Below, piece by piece: positions 32,360 to 47,625 of a stretch of DNA of 64,000 bases. This DNA is from the human T2T-CHM13v2.0 reference genome, Homo sapiens. The position numbers and the translations under genes are program-made. The DNA lies in the NCBI RefSeq assembly GCF_009914755.1, contig NC_060930.1; one strand, given 5' to 3'. The notes beneath the pieces are model-generated. The model searched no databases, was not told where the DNA came from, and saw nothing but the letters and a program-made list of their open reading frames with translations. Numbering within the stretch: the first letter of the stretch is position 1; each line of letters opens with the position of its first letter.

Positions 32360-33186
32360 TACTTTGTCCCTGCTGAATTCTCGAGACCTAGAACAGGCAC
32401 ATAATTGATGCTTATTAAAGATGTACAAATTAATGATCAGATTTTAGCCAGGGCCAGATTTCAGTTTTAGAAACATCACTCTGGCTGTAATATGAAAGTT
32501 AGATGGAAGAGGTAACACTAGAGAGGAGACCAAGCAGGAAGTTGGTGGCAAACCCTGACAGTAGACACACGGCCATGGCTTCCAGGGTTTTGGACTAAAA
32601 TCCTACCCTCTTCAGGAAATGACTAGTCTCATTCTGGAAAACATCTGTTGGCTTATTAGTGGTCTCTGAGGGAGGCTAAAAGCCTGACCCTGGGGTGCCC
32701 TGTGACCATGTGGCCCATACTTCTCATCATGAATGGGTCTTCTCTGGACCATTAAACCATGAAGCAGGAGGAGCATAGCAAGACTGGATCCAACCTTACA
32801 GCACAAATAAAACTGCAGGATGTCAAGGATCAATGGACAAGGTGACCTGTTCTGTGGACATGTGACCTACTCAGTTTCACACTCTGGCATTTTCTCAATG
32901 TGCTCGTGAGCAAATGTCTGTGCAGTAAGGTCAGGGGTCCCACATGGCTCAGAAGAATAGGCCTCCTCTCACTGAGGCTGACTTGGCTGCTGCAGGCCTG
33001 AGTGTCCCGTCAGTCAATGGCAGGAAGCAGCCCGTGAACATCTTGGAGGGGGCAGTGATTTGTCCTCAATGGGGGAGACACATCCAGATTTGGGTTTGCC
33101 TTCTGAGCCCATCATACTCATGTGACTTATTGAATGTCTTATTCACCAGGGTTTTTTACCAAAACACTGCTTCTGATTAAGAACTC
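32360..33186 (+). repeat. Left arm of a long inverted duplication (L2 pieces plus ERVL pol/integrase remnant)
   Basis: Reverse complement of 46734-47625; 133/137 identical over 32434-32570; ORF 32944 AQKNRPPLTEADLAAA resembles ERVL integrase AQQHGLPLTKADLATA. Confidence 0.95.
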
Positions 33187-33199
33187 AGTTGGCTTTGGG

Positions 33200-34270
33200 T
33201 CTGCTTACTTCCAGTCAGTACCTGGGCCACTGGCCACTCTCAATGTTCTTTTCTGCACGTGGATATTCAGGCTGACCTATTTCCTGGCTTGTAGGTTTGA
33301 CACACTTTTCTTTCCTGTTTGAATCGTAGGTACCTTGAAGCTATCTGAAAAAAAAAAAATTGGCTTGGGTAGAAAGGCAACACCCTGGATTTGTTCTTTG
33401 CCTGAGGCTTCCTCTCTGTGTGGCTGAGGAGTCTTAACAGGCCTTTGAGAAAGGGCGTGAGTACTGGTTTTATCACTTGCAGCTCTGGTTCAATTAAGTG
33501 CTATTATAAGCCTCTTTACGTATCAGTTGGCTTTTCAACCCTTAACAAGTCTCTTCTTTTTGGATGCTCTCTACTTTCTTCCAGCTCTGCTTGCAAACTT
33601 GTCAATTCTTGTCTTAGTTGATCACTTTTTTAAAAACCTGTTTATAGACAGCAAAGAGAAGCCAACACAGATTGACATTTGGATTCTTTCCAATAGCTTC
33701 ATTTGAAGCAATAGGAGAAGCGATCTGCTTCTCCAGTTATTGTAGGTAATAGCTTTGCCAAATGTTTTTTGACAATAGAACAAGGGTGGTCAACATTTTA
33801 GCCTGAAATACCCACGTCCCCATCACCTGTGATTCTCTCATTGTACCAATGCCACATCTTAGGTTTCAGTTATGGCAGCACTATGCACATTTCTGTATTA
33901 TTTAGGGCAAGTGCCCAGCTGCTGCAAAGAGAAGCCAAAATGCCCTGGTTTAAATAGGATAGATATTTATTTCTCTCACATATTACAGTGCAGTACAGTG
34001 CAGGTTCTGTTCCAGGAAATCATTCAGGGATGCATTTGAGTGAAGTCAAGCAATTGTCTTCAAATCATAGCTTCCACAGCTGCTAAAGACATAGAAAAAG
34101 GAAAGGTGATTTGAAAGTAAACATCTTTCAGAAGAGGAACTGGAAGATGAACATACCAATTTCATTCATTTCCATTTGGTGAGAACTCAGGTAATTGGCT
34201 ACATTTAGCTGCAAAAAGTTTGAAAAAAGTCATCTTAAGTCGGGGCAGCCCCACCGAAGAAAAAGTGAGA
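33200..34270 (-). mobile_element. Old MaLR (MLT1J/K/L-like) internal fragment plus LTR (LTR from ~33894)
   Basis: gccacatcttaggtttcagttatggcagcac...ttc|tgtatta junction; atttatttctctcacat; ccatttggtgagaactcag. Confidence 0.6.
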
Positions 34271-34744
34271 ATAGTTTTGGGGGGTTAACCAATATTATGG
34301 TCAGCATACTGGTCTACCTTATTCTTTATAGTGCTTATGTAGCATACGACTTAACAGATATACGGTAATTTTTCAACCATGTCCCTCTTGGAGGATTTTT
34401 AGATTGTTTCCAATATATTGCTATTATAATCCCTCTTTATACATAAATATTTGTGCCCTGTAATTTTATAATTTGTGTCCAAACTGCCCTCTGAAGTTGT
34501 ATTATCCTATCCTCATACTAAGGGTGCTGGCTTCCCCATGGCTTCACAAAATTGCGTCTTATCTGACTTTTTAGTTTTTGCCAATTTATTAGGTAAAAGA
34601 TGGTGTCTTGTTTTAGCTTGCATTTAAAAAATTATGTTTAGCATTTTTTCCTTCCTTTATAAAATCATTTTCTTTCTCCCTTCCTTCCCTTCCTTCCTTC
34701 CTTTTTCTTTTTCTTTCTTTCTTTTCATTCCTTCATTCCTTCCT

Positions 34745-35040
34745 TTTTTTTTTTTTTGAGAGAAGTCTCTCTCTTGTCCCCCAGGTTTGAGTGCAATGGC
34801 TTTTTCTCTGCTCACTGCAACCTCCACCTTCTGGGTTCAAATGATTCTCCTGCCTCTGCCTCCCAAGTAGCTGGGATTAAGGCGCCTGCCACCATGCCCA
34901 GCTAATTTTTGTATTTTTTAGTAGAGATGGTGTTTCACCATGTTGGCCAGGCTGATCTCGAACTCCCGACCTCAGATGATCCACCTGCTTTGGCCTCCCA
35001 AAGTGCTGGGATTACAGACGTGAGCCACTGCACCCGGTCC
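34745..35040 (-). mobile_element. AluS
   Basis: Reverse-strand dimer with T tail. Confidence 0.93.
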
Positions 35041-44895: not shown

Positions 44896-45760
44896 TATGT
44901 ATGTATGTATGCGTGTTTGATGTGATATGTGTGTGTCATGTGGTATGTGGTCTGTGTGTAGTGTGTGTGTATGTGGTATGTGGTATGTGAGTGTATGGTG
45001 TAATGCATTGTGTGTGGTGGGTATATGTGTATGGTGTGTATGTGGTGTGGTATGTGGTGTGTGTGTGGTGTATTGTGTGTGTTTGTGTGTGTGGTGTAGG
45101 GCATTGTGCATGGTGGGTGTATATGTATGGTGTGTGTAGTGTGGGGTGTGATATATGTGTTTGATGTATGTGTGTGTTATGTGTATAGTGTGGTGTATGT
45201 GTGTGGATGTGGTGCATATGTGGTGCGTGTGTGTAGTGTGTATGTAGTATGTTTTCTGTGTGTGGTGTGTGGATGTGGTGTGTGTGTAGTGCATTATGTG
45301 TGGTGGGTGTATATGTATGGTATATGTGATGTGTGTAGCATGATGTCTGTGTGTGTGTGTATGTGTGTAGTGCATTGTGTGTCGTGGGTATATATGTATG
45401 GTGTGTGTACTGGGGGTGTGATGTATGCATATGGTGCATATGAGGTATGTGTGTGGTGTGTGCATAGTGTGTTGATATATATGCTGTGTGTGTGTGGTGT
45501 GCATGTAGTGTGATGTGTGTGGTGTATGTGTGTGGATGTGTGTGTGTGGTGTGAGTGTAGTGTGTATGTAGTGTGCTTTCTGTGTGTGTTGTGTGTGTAG
45601 TGTATGTGTGTGGATGTGGTGTGTGTGGTGTGTGTGAAGTGTGTATGTAGTGTGTTTTCTGTGTGTGGTGTGTATGTAGTGTGATGTATATGTGGTGTAT
45701 GGTGTGGTATGTGTTTGGGGGTTGTGTATGTGTTGTGTGTATGTTGTGTGTGCATGTGTT
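44896..45760. repeat. Long imperfect (TG)-rich tract with higher-order subrepeats
   Basis: About 860 bp nearly devoid of C; source of the His/Thr-rich and Cys/Val-rich ORFs. Confidence 0.95.
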
Positions 45761-46409
45761 GGGATAAGAAGAGGGAGATTGGTTGAGACTTAAGCTAAGA
45801 TGGGTATGGCATGCCCAAACAGTCTTGAAATTTTTGATATAAAGTTTTATTTTTTCCTATCTTTTGATGTTGATTGAATTAGGGTAGTGGTTAGTATTGC
45901 TTTTGAGTGTTGATTTTAGAAGCATTTTAGGTTGAGTCAAAGGGACAAACAGTATATCAGCATCACTCTTTTTTTGCCAGCTTTTTTTTTTTTGAAGCAA
46001 AAACAAAATTCCAATTCCTTAAGAAGAGCAAAACATGCACCCACATGACCACTGCTTTCAGAGAGAAAGTCTTGGTGGGGAGCTATGGTGACACTCATTT
46101 AAGTGACAATGAAGTTACTTACATACATTCAGAAATTTATACAAAGAGGGCTTTGTGCATGGAGACAGGCGGGCCAGGCACATCCTGGTAGTGCAACAAG
46201 CCCTTGGAAATCTGGGCACATCTTGTCTTTCTACTTTCACATCCTCCTGTATATAGGGGCTTTTGTCCTTATTCTTGTTGCCTCAGGGTTAAAAGATGCT
46301 TTCTGCACCTCACAAAATGCTTTCTGTCGACTCTACTATCAGGAACTAGGGGAAAGAGATGAGGGTGAAAGTTGTGGCAGTACCTATTTAATAACATAAT
46401 TAAAGTATT

Positions 46410-46715
46410 CTTGAAAGTTCTACCCAGCACAAATGGTGGAAATAGAGGGAAGTGGATGGATTTAAGAAATATTTAGAAGGGAAAATTAATAACACTCGGA
46501 AATAATTAGATATGAAGGATGAGAGGGAGGTGCTAAGGATGATGTCAAGGTTTCTGGTTTGGGTACCTGGATTGGTGATGGTGCCATTCACTTAGAAAAT
46601 TGTGGAAGGGGATTGGGTTTTGGGAGAAGATCATGTGTTTAGTTATGTTGAGCATGAGGTGCCTCCAAAACATCCAAAAGGAGATGTCCGGTAGACAATT
46701 AGATATAGTTGCTCT
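46410..46715 (-). mobile_element. L2 fragment
   Basis: gaagtggatggatttaagaaatattt...ggatgatgtcaaggtttctggtttggg...catccaaaaggagatgtc. Confidence 0.85.
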
Positions 46716-46733
46716 ACTTTTTTCTTGCAATGA

Positions 46734-47625
46734 GAGTTCTTTTATTAGAAGCATTGTTGTGTGGTAAAGCATGATGGCCAATGAGACACTCAATAAGTCC
46801 ACAGGTGCTGGCCCAAACAGAAACACGATGAGCTAGGATGGTAAACCCAAATCTGGATGTGTCTACCCCACTGGGCAGATCACTGTCCCCTCCAAGATAT
46901 GCTAACATCCAAGCTGTTCACAGGCTGCTTCCTGCCATTGGTTGATGGGACACTCAGGCCTGCAGCAGCCAGGTCAGCCTCAGTGAGAGGAGGCCTGTGC
47001 TCTTCTGAGCCATGTGGGACCCCCATCCCTATTGCACAGACATTTGCTCACGAACACATTGAGAAAACACCAGGGTGTCTGGGAAAGAGACTGACTAGGT
47101 CACACGTCCACTGAGTGGGTCACCTTGTCCATTGATCCTTGACATCCTGCAGTCTTATTTGTGCTGTAAGATTGGATCCAGTCTTGCTATGCTCCTCCTG
47201 CTTCATGGCTTGATGGTCCAGAGAAGACCCATTCATGATGAGAAGTGTGGGCCACATGGTCCCAGGGGACCCCGAGGTCAGGCTTTCAGCCTCCCTCAAG
47301 GGGAGTAATAAGACAGTAGACATTTTCCAGAATGAGACTAGTTATTTGCTGAAGAGGGTGGGATTTTAGTCCAAAACCTTGGAAGCCGTGGCTGTGTGTC
47401 TACTGTCAGGGTTTGCCACCGACTTCCTGCTTGGTCTCCTCTCTAGTGTTACCTCCTCTATCTAACTTTCATATTACAGCCAGAGTAATGTTTCTAAAAC
47501 TGAAATCTGGCCCTGGCTAAAATCTGATCAATAATTTATTCAATCGCAATCCTTCAACACATATTTAACAAGCACCAATTATGTGTTGGTTTCAGGTCTT
47601 GAGGATTCAGCAGAGACCAAGATAA
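46734..47625 (-). repeat. Right arm of the long inverted duplication (ERVL pol/integrase remnant plus L2 pieces)
   Basis: Reverse complement matches 32360-33186; ORF 46714-46908 GVDTSRFGF...TCGLIECLIGHHALPHNNASNKRT resembles the ERVL integrase core. Confidence 0.95.

What the first reader, a model, noticed from the sequence alone, without database searches (positions are those of the whole stretch)
32360..47625. Inverted duplication bracketing ~13.5 kb, with patchy near-identity: possible gene-converting, invertible segment
Seen: 32360-33186 matches the reverse complement of 46734-47625. Both arms carry the same chimeric order (L2 tail, opposite-strand L2 piece, ERVL pol/integrase remnant) with the same junctions, so they are not independent insertions. 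Identity is uneven: 133/137 at 32434-32570 vs 47394-47530, about 5 mismatches in ~144 bp at 32704-32847, a poorer patch between them, and only ~75-80% at both extremities. Established: inverted repeats homogenised by gene conversion mediate recurrent inversions (e.g. FLNA-EMD). Inference: an old duplication whose core has been repeatedly converted, making 33.19-46.73 kb a candidate for orientation differences between species or haplotypes. Repeat masking would hide this because both arms consist of ancient TEs.
Basis: partly seen in the sequence, partly recalled or inferred. Interest (0 to 1): 0.8.

Follow-up and report, generated by a model that had tools for sequence, protein, structure and literature searches.

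The report
Old inverted duplicate of ERV-L fragment
Two 0.85-kb copies of a decayed retrovirus fragment face each other across 13.5 kb of gene-free human chromosome 6; they are a real but old and fairly ordinary local duplication, now probably too diverged to flip the segment between them.

Summary
Window 32362-33186 matches the reverse complement of 46734-47621 (735 of 822 aligned bases, 89.4%; 81.8% with gaps). It is the only close pair for this sequence in the T2T genome.

About 80% of each arm is a decayed ERV-L pol piece (RT connection, RNase H, start of integrase).

Both arms share a ~555-bp internal deletion and the same ERV-L/non-ERV-L junction, so one copy was made from the other.

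K2P is 0.088 against 0.23-0.25. Statistical support is moderate (scan permutations: 6 of 300, 0 of 200, 4 of 200, 94 of 200, depending on how clustered changes are counted). The finer mosaic inside the core disappears when adjacent mismatches are merged.

One past conversion of the core is plausible but untested. Nothing shows a segment that inverts today: the longest perfect match is 43 bp, the arms are under 1 kb, and I found no inversion reported here.

An ERV-L LTR downstream of the left arm hints that the arms are the footprint of one ancient inversion. Primate and pangenome comparison, not available here, is decisive.

The parts
32362..33186 (+). Left arm of the inverted duplication (T2T chr6:138292362-138293186)
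46734..47621 (-). Right arm of the inverted duplication (T2T chr6:138306734-138307621). It is 63 bases longer than the left arm because of indels.
32434..33097 (+). Better-preserved core of the left arm (pairs with 47530-46843): 54 mismatches in 661 aligned bases, K2P 0.088. It is bounded near 32424 and 33039 by 19-bp and 17-bp indels.
32535..33190 (+). ERV-L pol-derived part of the left arm, sense +. RT-RNase H connection at 32535-32808; RNase H to the start of the integrase core at 32815-33190. About 555 bp of pol is missing between the two.
   Evidence: nhmmer; tblastn; Pfam on the relatives
46707..47438 (-). ERV-L pol-derived part of the right arm, sense -, with the same ~555-bp gap (47150/47157)
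32362..32534 (.). Non-ERV-L outer part of the left arm (pairs with 47439-47621). Origin not identified; the 'L2' label is not verified.
47643..48355 (.). Later repeat insertion just outside the right arm (82.6% identical to a chr12 copy over 47652-48335). It lies inside the interruption of the ERV-L remnant.
48579..49253 (-). ERV-L reverse-transcriptase remnant, collinear with the right arm. It shows that the right arm still sits in its original context on its outer side.
37571..38160 (+). ERV-L LTR, the only one detected in the 64-kb window. It has the same sense as the left arm and lies 4.4 kb downstream of it.
   Evidence: L006, L007, L008, L009 LTR parts; E 4e-16 to 6e-24
33187..46733 (.). 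13.5-kb spacer. It holds Alus (about 34740-35038, 38141-38454, 42396-42700, 44355-44790), the ERV-L LTR and a TG-rich tract at 44898-45759. No Pfam or Rfam signal.

Best explanation
The pair is a single, ancient, local inverted duplication of a 0.85-kb stretch of an already decayed ERV-L provirus, together with about 175 bp of a foreign insert in that provirus.

The right arm is the original. The provirus's RT remnant continues beyond it at 48579-49253. The left arm is the copy.

I think the copy was most likely made in the same event that inverted the 13.5-kb spacer: a staggered-break or template-switch rearrangement that duplicates one breakpoint. On that reading the arms are the footprint of an inversion, not its cause.

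Since then both arms have decayed. The central ~0.65 kb looks younger (K2P 0.088) than the two ends (0.23-0.25). The best explanation for that is one ectopic gene-conversion event between the arms, tens of millions of years ago.

Today the arms are too short and too diverged to be an efficient substrate for homologous exchange, so the segment is most likely fixed in one orientation.

Shown here: the duplication, its ERV-L content, the shared junctions, the outer-side continuity of the right arm, and the uneven divergence. Inferred: the coupling to an inversion, the conversion, the dates, and the present inactivity.
For: Uniqueness:
- The arms are the only close pair in the genome.

ERV-L content:
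- Both arms align collinearly to three ERV-L proviruses on chr12, chr5 and chr13 at 61-79% identity.
- Those proviruses carry RVT_1, RT_RNaseH, RNase_H, rve and dUTPase in retroviral order (rve in 3 loci and one RVT_1 are above Pfam's cut-off; the rest lie just below).

One copy made from the other:
- Both arms lack the same ~555 bp (L003 positions 1681-2237).
- Both switch to non-ERV-L sequence at the same place, 32535 / 47438.

Right arm is the original:
- The RT remnant at 48579-49253 continues the right arm at L003 2541, after 2514.
- Nothing similar lies left of the left arm.

Link to an inversion:
- The only ERV-L LTR in the window (37571-38160) lies 4.4 kb downstream of the left arm in the same sense. 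A staggered-break inversion predicts exactly this: the left arm keeps the old inner flank and the right arm keeps the old outer flank.
- Passages of PMC1885836 describe such inversion-made inverted duplications of 46 bp to 1.9 kb, one-sided in 12 of 18 cases.

Uneven divergence:
- K2P is 0.088 +/- 0.012 in the core against 0.23 +/- 0.07 and 0.25 +/- 0.06 at the edges.
- Scan permutations: 6 of 300 reach the observed value; with indels counted, 0 of 200, or 4 of 200 after merging adjacent changes.
- Gap events: 4 in the 615-bp centre against 9 in the last 147 bp.

Present inactivity:
- The longest perfect run is 43 bp.
Against: - The link to an inversion rests on one LTR. ERV-L LTRs are common, so by my rough estimate a chance neighbour in the right sense within 5 kb has odds of 4-10%.
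- The ~1 kb of ERV-L that should lie between the integrase and the LTR is not detectable in either inner flank.
- ERV-L homology stops within about 25 bp of the inner boundary in both arms. This coincidence is unexplained.
- The two predicted ancestral junctions could not be tested, because no repeat copy reaches the boundaries.
- For conversion: BIC prefers a single rate; significance is lost when changes within 3 bp are merged (94 of 200); the core and edge limits were chosen after seeing the data; there is no outgroup.
- Present inactivity is inferred from sequence and from literature norms, not measured.
Confidence: 0.5

Rival explanations
1. One reading: an old inverted duplication whose core is repeatedly homogenised by gene conversion and which still mediates recurrent inversion of 33.19-46.73 kb, so that orientation differs between species or haplotypes.
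For: The inverted geometry and the uneven identity are real. Blocks of 95-96.5% identity alternate with blocks of 77-83% in the best 7-segment fit. Block lengths of 144-208 bp fit the few-hundred-bp tracts of mammalian conversion quoted in PMC3961182 (passage). In PMC3961182 Table 1, HsInv0114 is a 14.7-kb polymorphic inversion between 2.7-kb repeats made of old transposon pieces, so the architecture has a precedent.
Against: The mosaic inside the core is not robust. Dispersion is 0.86-0.97 of expectation once adjacent mismatches are merged, and BIC prefers one rate. Even the best blocks are 3.5-5% diverged, so any conversion is old. The longest perfect match is 43 bp. The arms are 0.83-0.89 kb. 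The smallest repeat in PMC3961182 Table 1 is 1.6 kb, and none of its 22 candidate loci is on chr6. Passages of the preprint 10.1101/2021.12.20.472354 say 23 of 32 recurrent autosomal and X inversions have repeats of 10 kb or more, and L1 pairs flanking inversions have a median identity of 97.2%. No inversion here was found.
Confidence: 0.1
2. One duplication and nothing more. The arms have diverged at one underlying rate. The apparent core and edges come from chance, clustered multi-base mutations, and gap-rich alignment at the AT-richer ends.
For: BIC favours a single-rate model (561.9 against 570.6 for three segments). Overdispersion disappears when adjacent mismatches are merged. The scan is not significant when changes within 3 bp are merged (94 of 200). 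The edges are short (72 and 89 aligned bases) and have lower G+C (35-39% against 49-50%).
Against: Both edges independently show about 2.7 times the core's divergence. The right edge also has 9 gap events in 147 bp against 4 in 615 bp. Scans on unmerged data reach 6 of 300 and 0 of 200. Merging changes removes signal preferentially where divergence is high.
Confidence: 0.3
3. Two independent insertions of the same ERV-L-derived element in opposite orientation, not a duplication.
For: About 80% of each arm is ERV-L pol. ERV-L homology ends within about 25 bp of the inner boundary in both arms.
Against: The arms are 89% identical to each other but only 61-79% identical to any other copy in the genome. 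They share a 555-bp deletion and about 175 bp of non-ERV-L sequence beyond a common junction. No third copy with this structure exists among the candidates found.
Confidence: 0.03

Closest known systems
Inverted duplications created at inversion breakpoints by staggered breaks (Ranz et al. 2007, PMC1885836; abstract and passages seen)
   Same: Short inverted copies of formerly single-copy sequence bracket a segment. The size here (0.85 kb) falls within the reported 46 bp to 1.9 kb. Duplication is one-sided, as in 12 of their 18 cases. The mean identity of their duplicates is about 88%. The right arm keeps its outer context, and an LTR fits the left arm keeping the old inner context.
   Different: Their cases are in Drosophila and were proven with outgroup species. 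Here no outgroup could be examined, the duplicated sequence is a transposon remnant, and the internal ERV-L sequence expected next to the left arm is not detectable.
NAHR-mediated polymorphic human inversions between inverted repeats, e.g. HsInv0114 and HsInv0389 (the FLNA-EMD region on chrX by my recollection) in PMC3961182 Table 1 (section 6 read)
   Same: Inverted repeats flank a segment of about 7-50 kb. HsInv0114's repeats are made of old transposon pieces and flank 14.7 kb, much as here.
   Different: Those repeats are 1.6-32 kb long, and their breakpoints lie in regions of high identity. Here the arms are 0.85 kb, 89% identical, with at most 43 identical bases in a row. No orientation polymorphism is known at this locus.
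Human segmental duplications (usual definition recalled: at least 1 kb and at least 90% identity)
   Same: A locally duplicated, non-family-wide sequence pair.
   Different: It falls below both thresholds (825 and 888 bp; 89.4% ungapped, 81.8% gapped), so it would not appear in segmental-duplication tracks.
ERV-L (class III endogenous retrovirus) internal sequence
   Same: The arms align collinearly to the pol of three ERV-L proviruses (RT connection, RNase H, integrase). Those proviruses carry dUTPase after the integrase, which by recollection marks ERV-L.
   Different: The arms are only 61-79% identical to those copies. They have no open frames and no Pfam hit of their own, an internal deletion, and a foreign insert.

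Membership tests
NAHR-competent inverted repeat / recurrently invertible segment | Inverted orientation of two homologous arms flanking the segment | tested here: met
NAHR-competent inverted repeat / recurrently invertible segment | High identity and long uninterrupted identity between the arms (norms: L1 pairs median 97.2%; breakpoints in high-identity regions; a minimum of roughly 200 identical bases is recalled, not from a call) | tested here: not met
   89.4% ungapped, core 91.8%, longest perfect run 43 bp
NAHR-competent inverted repeat / recurrently invertible segment | Repeat length typical of known cases (at least 1.6 kb in PMC3961182 Table 1; at least 10 kb in 23 of 32 recurrent inversions; at least 200 bp as the loosest criterion) | tested here: inconclusive
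   825 and 888 bp passes the 200-bp criterion but lies below every case
NAHR-competent inverted repeat / recurrently invertible segment | Both orientations observed among haplotypes or species | not testable with these tools
   No primate or pangenome assemblies are held. Literature checks found nothing. The ape-genome supplement could not be opened.
Gene-converting paralogue pair | Divergence significantly heterogeneous along the alignment | tested here: inconclusive
   Scans: 6 of 300; 0 of 200, 4 of 200 and 94 of 200. Dispersion is significant on raw data but not after merging. BIC favours one rate.
Gene-converting paralogue pair | Arms cluster by species rather than by position in a multi-species tree | not testable with these tools
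   No orthologous sequences are available.
Inversion-breakpoint duplication (staggered-break footprint) | Inverted copies of one breakpoint sequence at both ends of the segment, in the size range 46 bp to 1.9 kb | tested here: met
Inversion-breakpoint duplication (staggered-break footprint) | One arm keeps the ancestral outer flank and the other keeps the ancestral inner flank | tested here: inconclusive
   Outer flank of the right arm: the ERV-L RT continues. Inner flank of the left arm: only an ERV-L LTR 4.4 kb away in the right sense, and no internal ERV-L sequence.
Inversion-breakpoint duplication (staggered-break footprint) | An outgroup with a single copy and the opposite orientation of the segment | not testable with these tools
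   No outgroup genomes are held.
Segmental duplication | At least 1 kb and at least 90% identity (recalled definition) | tested here: not met
   825 and 888 bp, 89.4% or 81.8%
ERV-L-derived sequence | Collinear homology to pol of proviruses with the order RT, RNase H, integrase, dUTPase | tested here: met
   No Dfam or RepeatMasker is held. The genome search found only the other arm and one 57-59 nt match at 83%.

The most novel reading that the evidence does not exclude
The arms began as the duplicated breakpoint of an ancient inversion. They then served as a substrate for conversion and re-inversion during primate evolution. On this reading the 13.5-kb block between IL20RA and IL22RA2/IFNGR1 differs in orientation among primate lineages or rare human haplotypes, showing that sub-kilobase repeats below the segmental-duplication thresholds, built from old transposons, can toggle.
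Probability: 0.08. Interest if true: 0.55.

Novelty: new member of a known kind. Interest (0 to 1): 0.25.

Why it matters
If the ordinary reading holds, this is one more small, old inverted duplicate in gene-free DNA. Its value is mainly as a worked example: a pair below the usual segmental-duplication thresholds and built from a retroviral remnant, which standard duplication tracks and repeat masking would overlook.

It would matter more if comparative data showed either of two things:
- The spacer was inverted when the arms were made. That would be a mammalian example of breakpoint-duplicating inversion of the kind described in Drosophila.
- Orientation varies among primates or people. The block lies between the cytokine-receptor genes IL20RA and IL22RA2/IFNGR1, in a window carrying annotated enhancers.

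Tried and rejected
I then scanned 149 of the 192 stop-to-stop ORFs of at least 40 aa in 31500-48500. The 43 left out lie mostly in Alu or simple-repeat stretches. 0 of 149 reached a curated cut-off and none hit a retroviral family, so the arms' ERV-L nature shows only through DNA and tblastn comparison with better-preserved copies.
- Rfam over 31000-49500 found 0 matches at gathering scores.
- An apparent tblastn extension of integrase homology 83 bp past the right arm's inner boundary proved to be alignment padding. I dropped it as evidence.
- Searches for repeat copies spanning the predicted ancestral junctions found only a MIR-like element at 31643-31816, a low-copy repeat at 31821-32108, and weak non-ERV-L matches at 33249-33780 and 46433-46700. 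None reaches a boundary, so the inversion and plain-duplication models could not be separated this way.
- One chr1 locus (L033) carries a relative of 31901-32094 near an ERV-L LTR. I could not make a consistent rearrangement model from it and treat it as coincidence.
- There is no homology beyond the arms, even when skipping the inserted repeat at 47643-48355.
- A long-terminal-inverted-repeat transposon (Polinton-like) was considered and dropped: there are no protein-domain hits in the spacer, and the arms are pol fragments.
- The search of earlier findings was not open.
- Paper reading closed, before the ape-genome supplement could be searched.
- The one held supplement file of PMC12350169 (cut when stored) gave only irrelevant number matches.

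
Full report
**1. Observation**

The inverted match is real.
- The repeat finder lists collinear inverted pairs I1, I2, I5, I7 and I16 between 32422-33113 and 46827-47542.
- Self-blastn of the window gives one HSP, 32362-33186 against 47621-46734, 81.8% over 891 columns, E = 0.
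- A local alignment has 735 matches, 87 mismatches and 69 gap columns, in 15 gap events. That is 89.4% identity without gaps.

- 4 mismatches in 32434-32570.
- 5 of 144 in 32704-32847.
- 20 of 133 in between.
- 80.6% and 78.7% at the two ends.

Searched against the whole assembly, the left arm found five candidates, all scored: itself, the other arm (82%), and three weak matches of 62-172 nt at 69-81%. The arms are therefore a unique pair, not members of an abundant young repeat family. The tool warns that its counts are lower bounds. No homology continues outside the arms. Among non-Alu self-matches in the window, this pair is the only strong one not explained by a repeat family seen elsewhere in the window.

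**2. What the arms are**

The three weak genomic matches (L003 on chr12, L004 on chr5, L005 on chr13) are 85-87% identical to one another over 1.9-2.9 kb. I scanned 60 of their 101 ORFs. On one strand they carry RVT_1, RT_RNaseH, RNase_H, rve and dUTPase in retroviral order. rve in all three loci and one RVT_1 exceed Pfam's cut-off; the others fall just short. A dUTPase after the integrase marks ERV-L by my recollection.

Both arms align collinearly to these proviruses (blastn, 61-79%; nhmmer, E 1e-12 to 3e-31; tblastn):
- Left arm: 32535-32808 (RT-RNase H connection) and 32815-33190 (RNase H to the start of the integrase core), sense +.
- Right arm: 47438-47152 and 47150-46707, sense -.

The window's own ORFs give no Pfam support (0 of 149), as expected for so decayed a sequence.

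The outer ~175 bp (32362-32534 / 47439-47621) is not ERV-L. It has only one further weak match in the genome (57-59 nt at 83%). The 'L2' label could be neither confirmed nor refuted, because no repeat library is held.

**3. Duplication, and which arm is the original**

- Both arms lack the same ~555 bp of pol (L003 positions 1681-2237).
- Both change from ERV-L to foreign sequence at the same point.
- They are far closer to each other than to any other copy.

One arm was therefore copied from the other after the provirus had already been damaged.

On the right, the ERV-L remnant resumes at 48579-49253 (reverse transcriptase, same sense, L003 2541 following 2514). It resumes after a 1.14-kb interruption that includes a later repeat insertion at 47643-48355 (82.6% identical to a chr12 copy). 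Nothing comparable lies left of the left arm. The right arm therefore still sits in its original outer context, and the left arm is the copy, or at least has a new outer junction.

A caveat follows from the layout. Both shared junctions lie inside the better-preserved core, so on their own they do not prove that the edges stem from the same event. The left edge, however, is non-ERV-L sequence that still matches at 80.6%. That argues against independent ERV-L insertions.

**4. Uneven identity**

K2P distance:

| Region | K2P |
|---|---|
| Core 32434-33097 | 0.088 +/- 0.012 |
| Left edge | 0.23 +/- 0.07 |
| Right edge | 0.25 +/- 0.06 |

A scan for the best low-divergence segment, with permutation:
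- 6 of 300 shuffles reach the observed value on mismatches alone.
- 0 of 200 when gap events are added.
- 4 of 200 after merging adjacent changes.
- 94 of 200 after merging changes within 3 bp.

Gap events are 4 in the central 615 bp against 9 in the last 147 bp.

But BIC prefers a single rate. The overdispersion (for example 21 of 5000 shuffles at 20-bp bins) disappears once adjacent mismatches are merged (dispersion 0.86-0.97).

So the contrast between core and edges is moderately supported. The finer mosaic is not robust. Merging also removes signal preferentially where divergence is high, so these tests are conservative.

With recalled neutral rates of 1.0 to 2.2 x 10^-9 per site per year, the core would date to roughly 20-44 Myr and the edges to roughly 53-126 Myr. 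One conversion of the core after an older duplication fits. 'Repeated' conversion is not shown. Without an outgroup, conversion itself remains an inference.

**5. Origin**

Two models fit an inverted copy 13.5 kb away.

(a) An inversion whose breakpoint was duplicated by staggered breaks or template switching, as described for Drosophila. There such duplicates measure 46 bp to 1.9 kb, average about 88% identity, and are one-sided in 12 of 18 cases (PMC1885836, abstract and passages). This model predicts that the right arm keeps the old outer flank, which is seen. It also predicts that the left arm keeps the old inner flank. The only ERV-L LTR detected in the 64-kb window lies at 37571-38160, 4.4 kb downstream of the left arm and in the same sense. 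That is where the provirus's 3' LTR would sit after such an inversion.

(b) A plain dispersed inverted duplication with no inversion. The LTR would then be a chance neighbour. My rough estimate for that is 4-10%.

Against (a): the ~1 kb of ERV-L between the integrase and the LTR is undetectable in either inner flank. In addition, ERV-L homology ends within about 25 bp of the inner boundary in both arms. The ancestral junctions that would separate the models could not be tested, since no repeat copy reaches a boundary. I lean towards (a), at perhaps 55:45.

**6. Is the segment invertible now?**

- The longest perfect match between the arms is 43 bp.
- The arms are 825 and 888 bp long and 89% identical.
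- In PMC3961182 Table 1 (section read), the 22 candidate inversions have repeats of 1.6-32 kb, and none is on chr6. Its text says breakpoints lie in regions of high identity.
[quoted passage not shown] The two chr6 calls named in its main text lie elsewhere. Its supplements are closed.
- Full-text searches for IL22RA2 + IL20RA + inversion (1 paper, a 3D-genome review; listing only) and for 6q23.3 + polymorphic inversion (1 paper, on 8p23.1; listing only) gave nothing relevant.
- The single held supplement file of PMC12350169 (cut when stored) had no relevant hit for the T2T coordinates or for my recalled approximate hg38 coordinates.
- Paper reading closed before the ape-genome supplement could be searched.

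Present-day inversion is therefore unsupported and, on sequence grounds, unlikely. It is not excluded.

**7. Verdict**

This is a genuine, unique, old inverted duplication of a retroviral remnant. It is a new example of a known kind of structure, below the usual thresholds for segmental duplications.

The conversion idea is plausible but only moderately supported. The 'invertible segment' idea is not supported. The most interesting open point is whether the arms are the scar of an ancient inversion. Comparative assemblies would settle both questions quickly.

Noticed in passing
window 44898-45759: An ~860-bp degenerate TG-rich tandem tract inside the spacer, about 1 kb from the right arm. It produces long spurious ORFs of up to 365 aa with no Pfam hit and His/Thr-rich chance tblastn matches.
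   Followed up: partly
window 37571-38160, 38038-38120, 38141-38454: An ERV-L LTR, followed by a (TATC)n run and an Alu. A chr1 locus (L033) also has an ERV-L LTR, a (TATC)n-like run and an Alu close together, in a different order, near a relative of window 31901-32094. No consistent explanation found.
   Followed up: partly
window 29806-29905 and 32070-32166: A 100-bp direct repeat at 80-82% identity, 2.3 kb apart, just left of the left arm. It overlaps the end of a low-copy old repeat at 31821-32108 that also occurs on chr8 and chr1.
   Followed up: no
window 1716-3883 vs 58260-56111; 6560-7959 vs 55913-57016: A second, larger set of matches near the window ends: an inverted pair at 73% over 2.2 kb and a direct pair at 82-86% over about 1.1 kb. 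The same family also matches 38648-39304 and 18560-19062, so these look like separate copies of one LINE-like family, not a duplication.
   Followed up: partly
window 47643-48355: A repeat insertion with an A-rich end, about 22 bp outside the right arm's boundary and 82.6% identical to a chr12 copy. The near-coincidence with the arm's end is unexplained.
   Followed up: partly
window 31643-31816: A high-copy old SINE-like element (657 first-look candidates; 73-89% identity over about 70-170 nt), probably MIR by recollection.
   Followed up: no
window 33249-33664: Two adjacent pieces match one chr2 locus (L027) in opposite orientations: 33524-33664 on + and 33401-33249 on -. This points to a small old rearranged repeat next to the left arm's inner boundary.
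   Followed up: no
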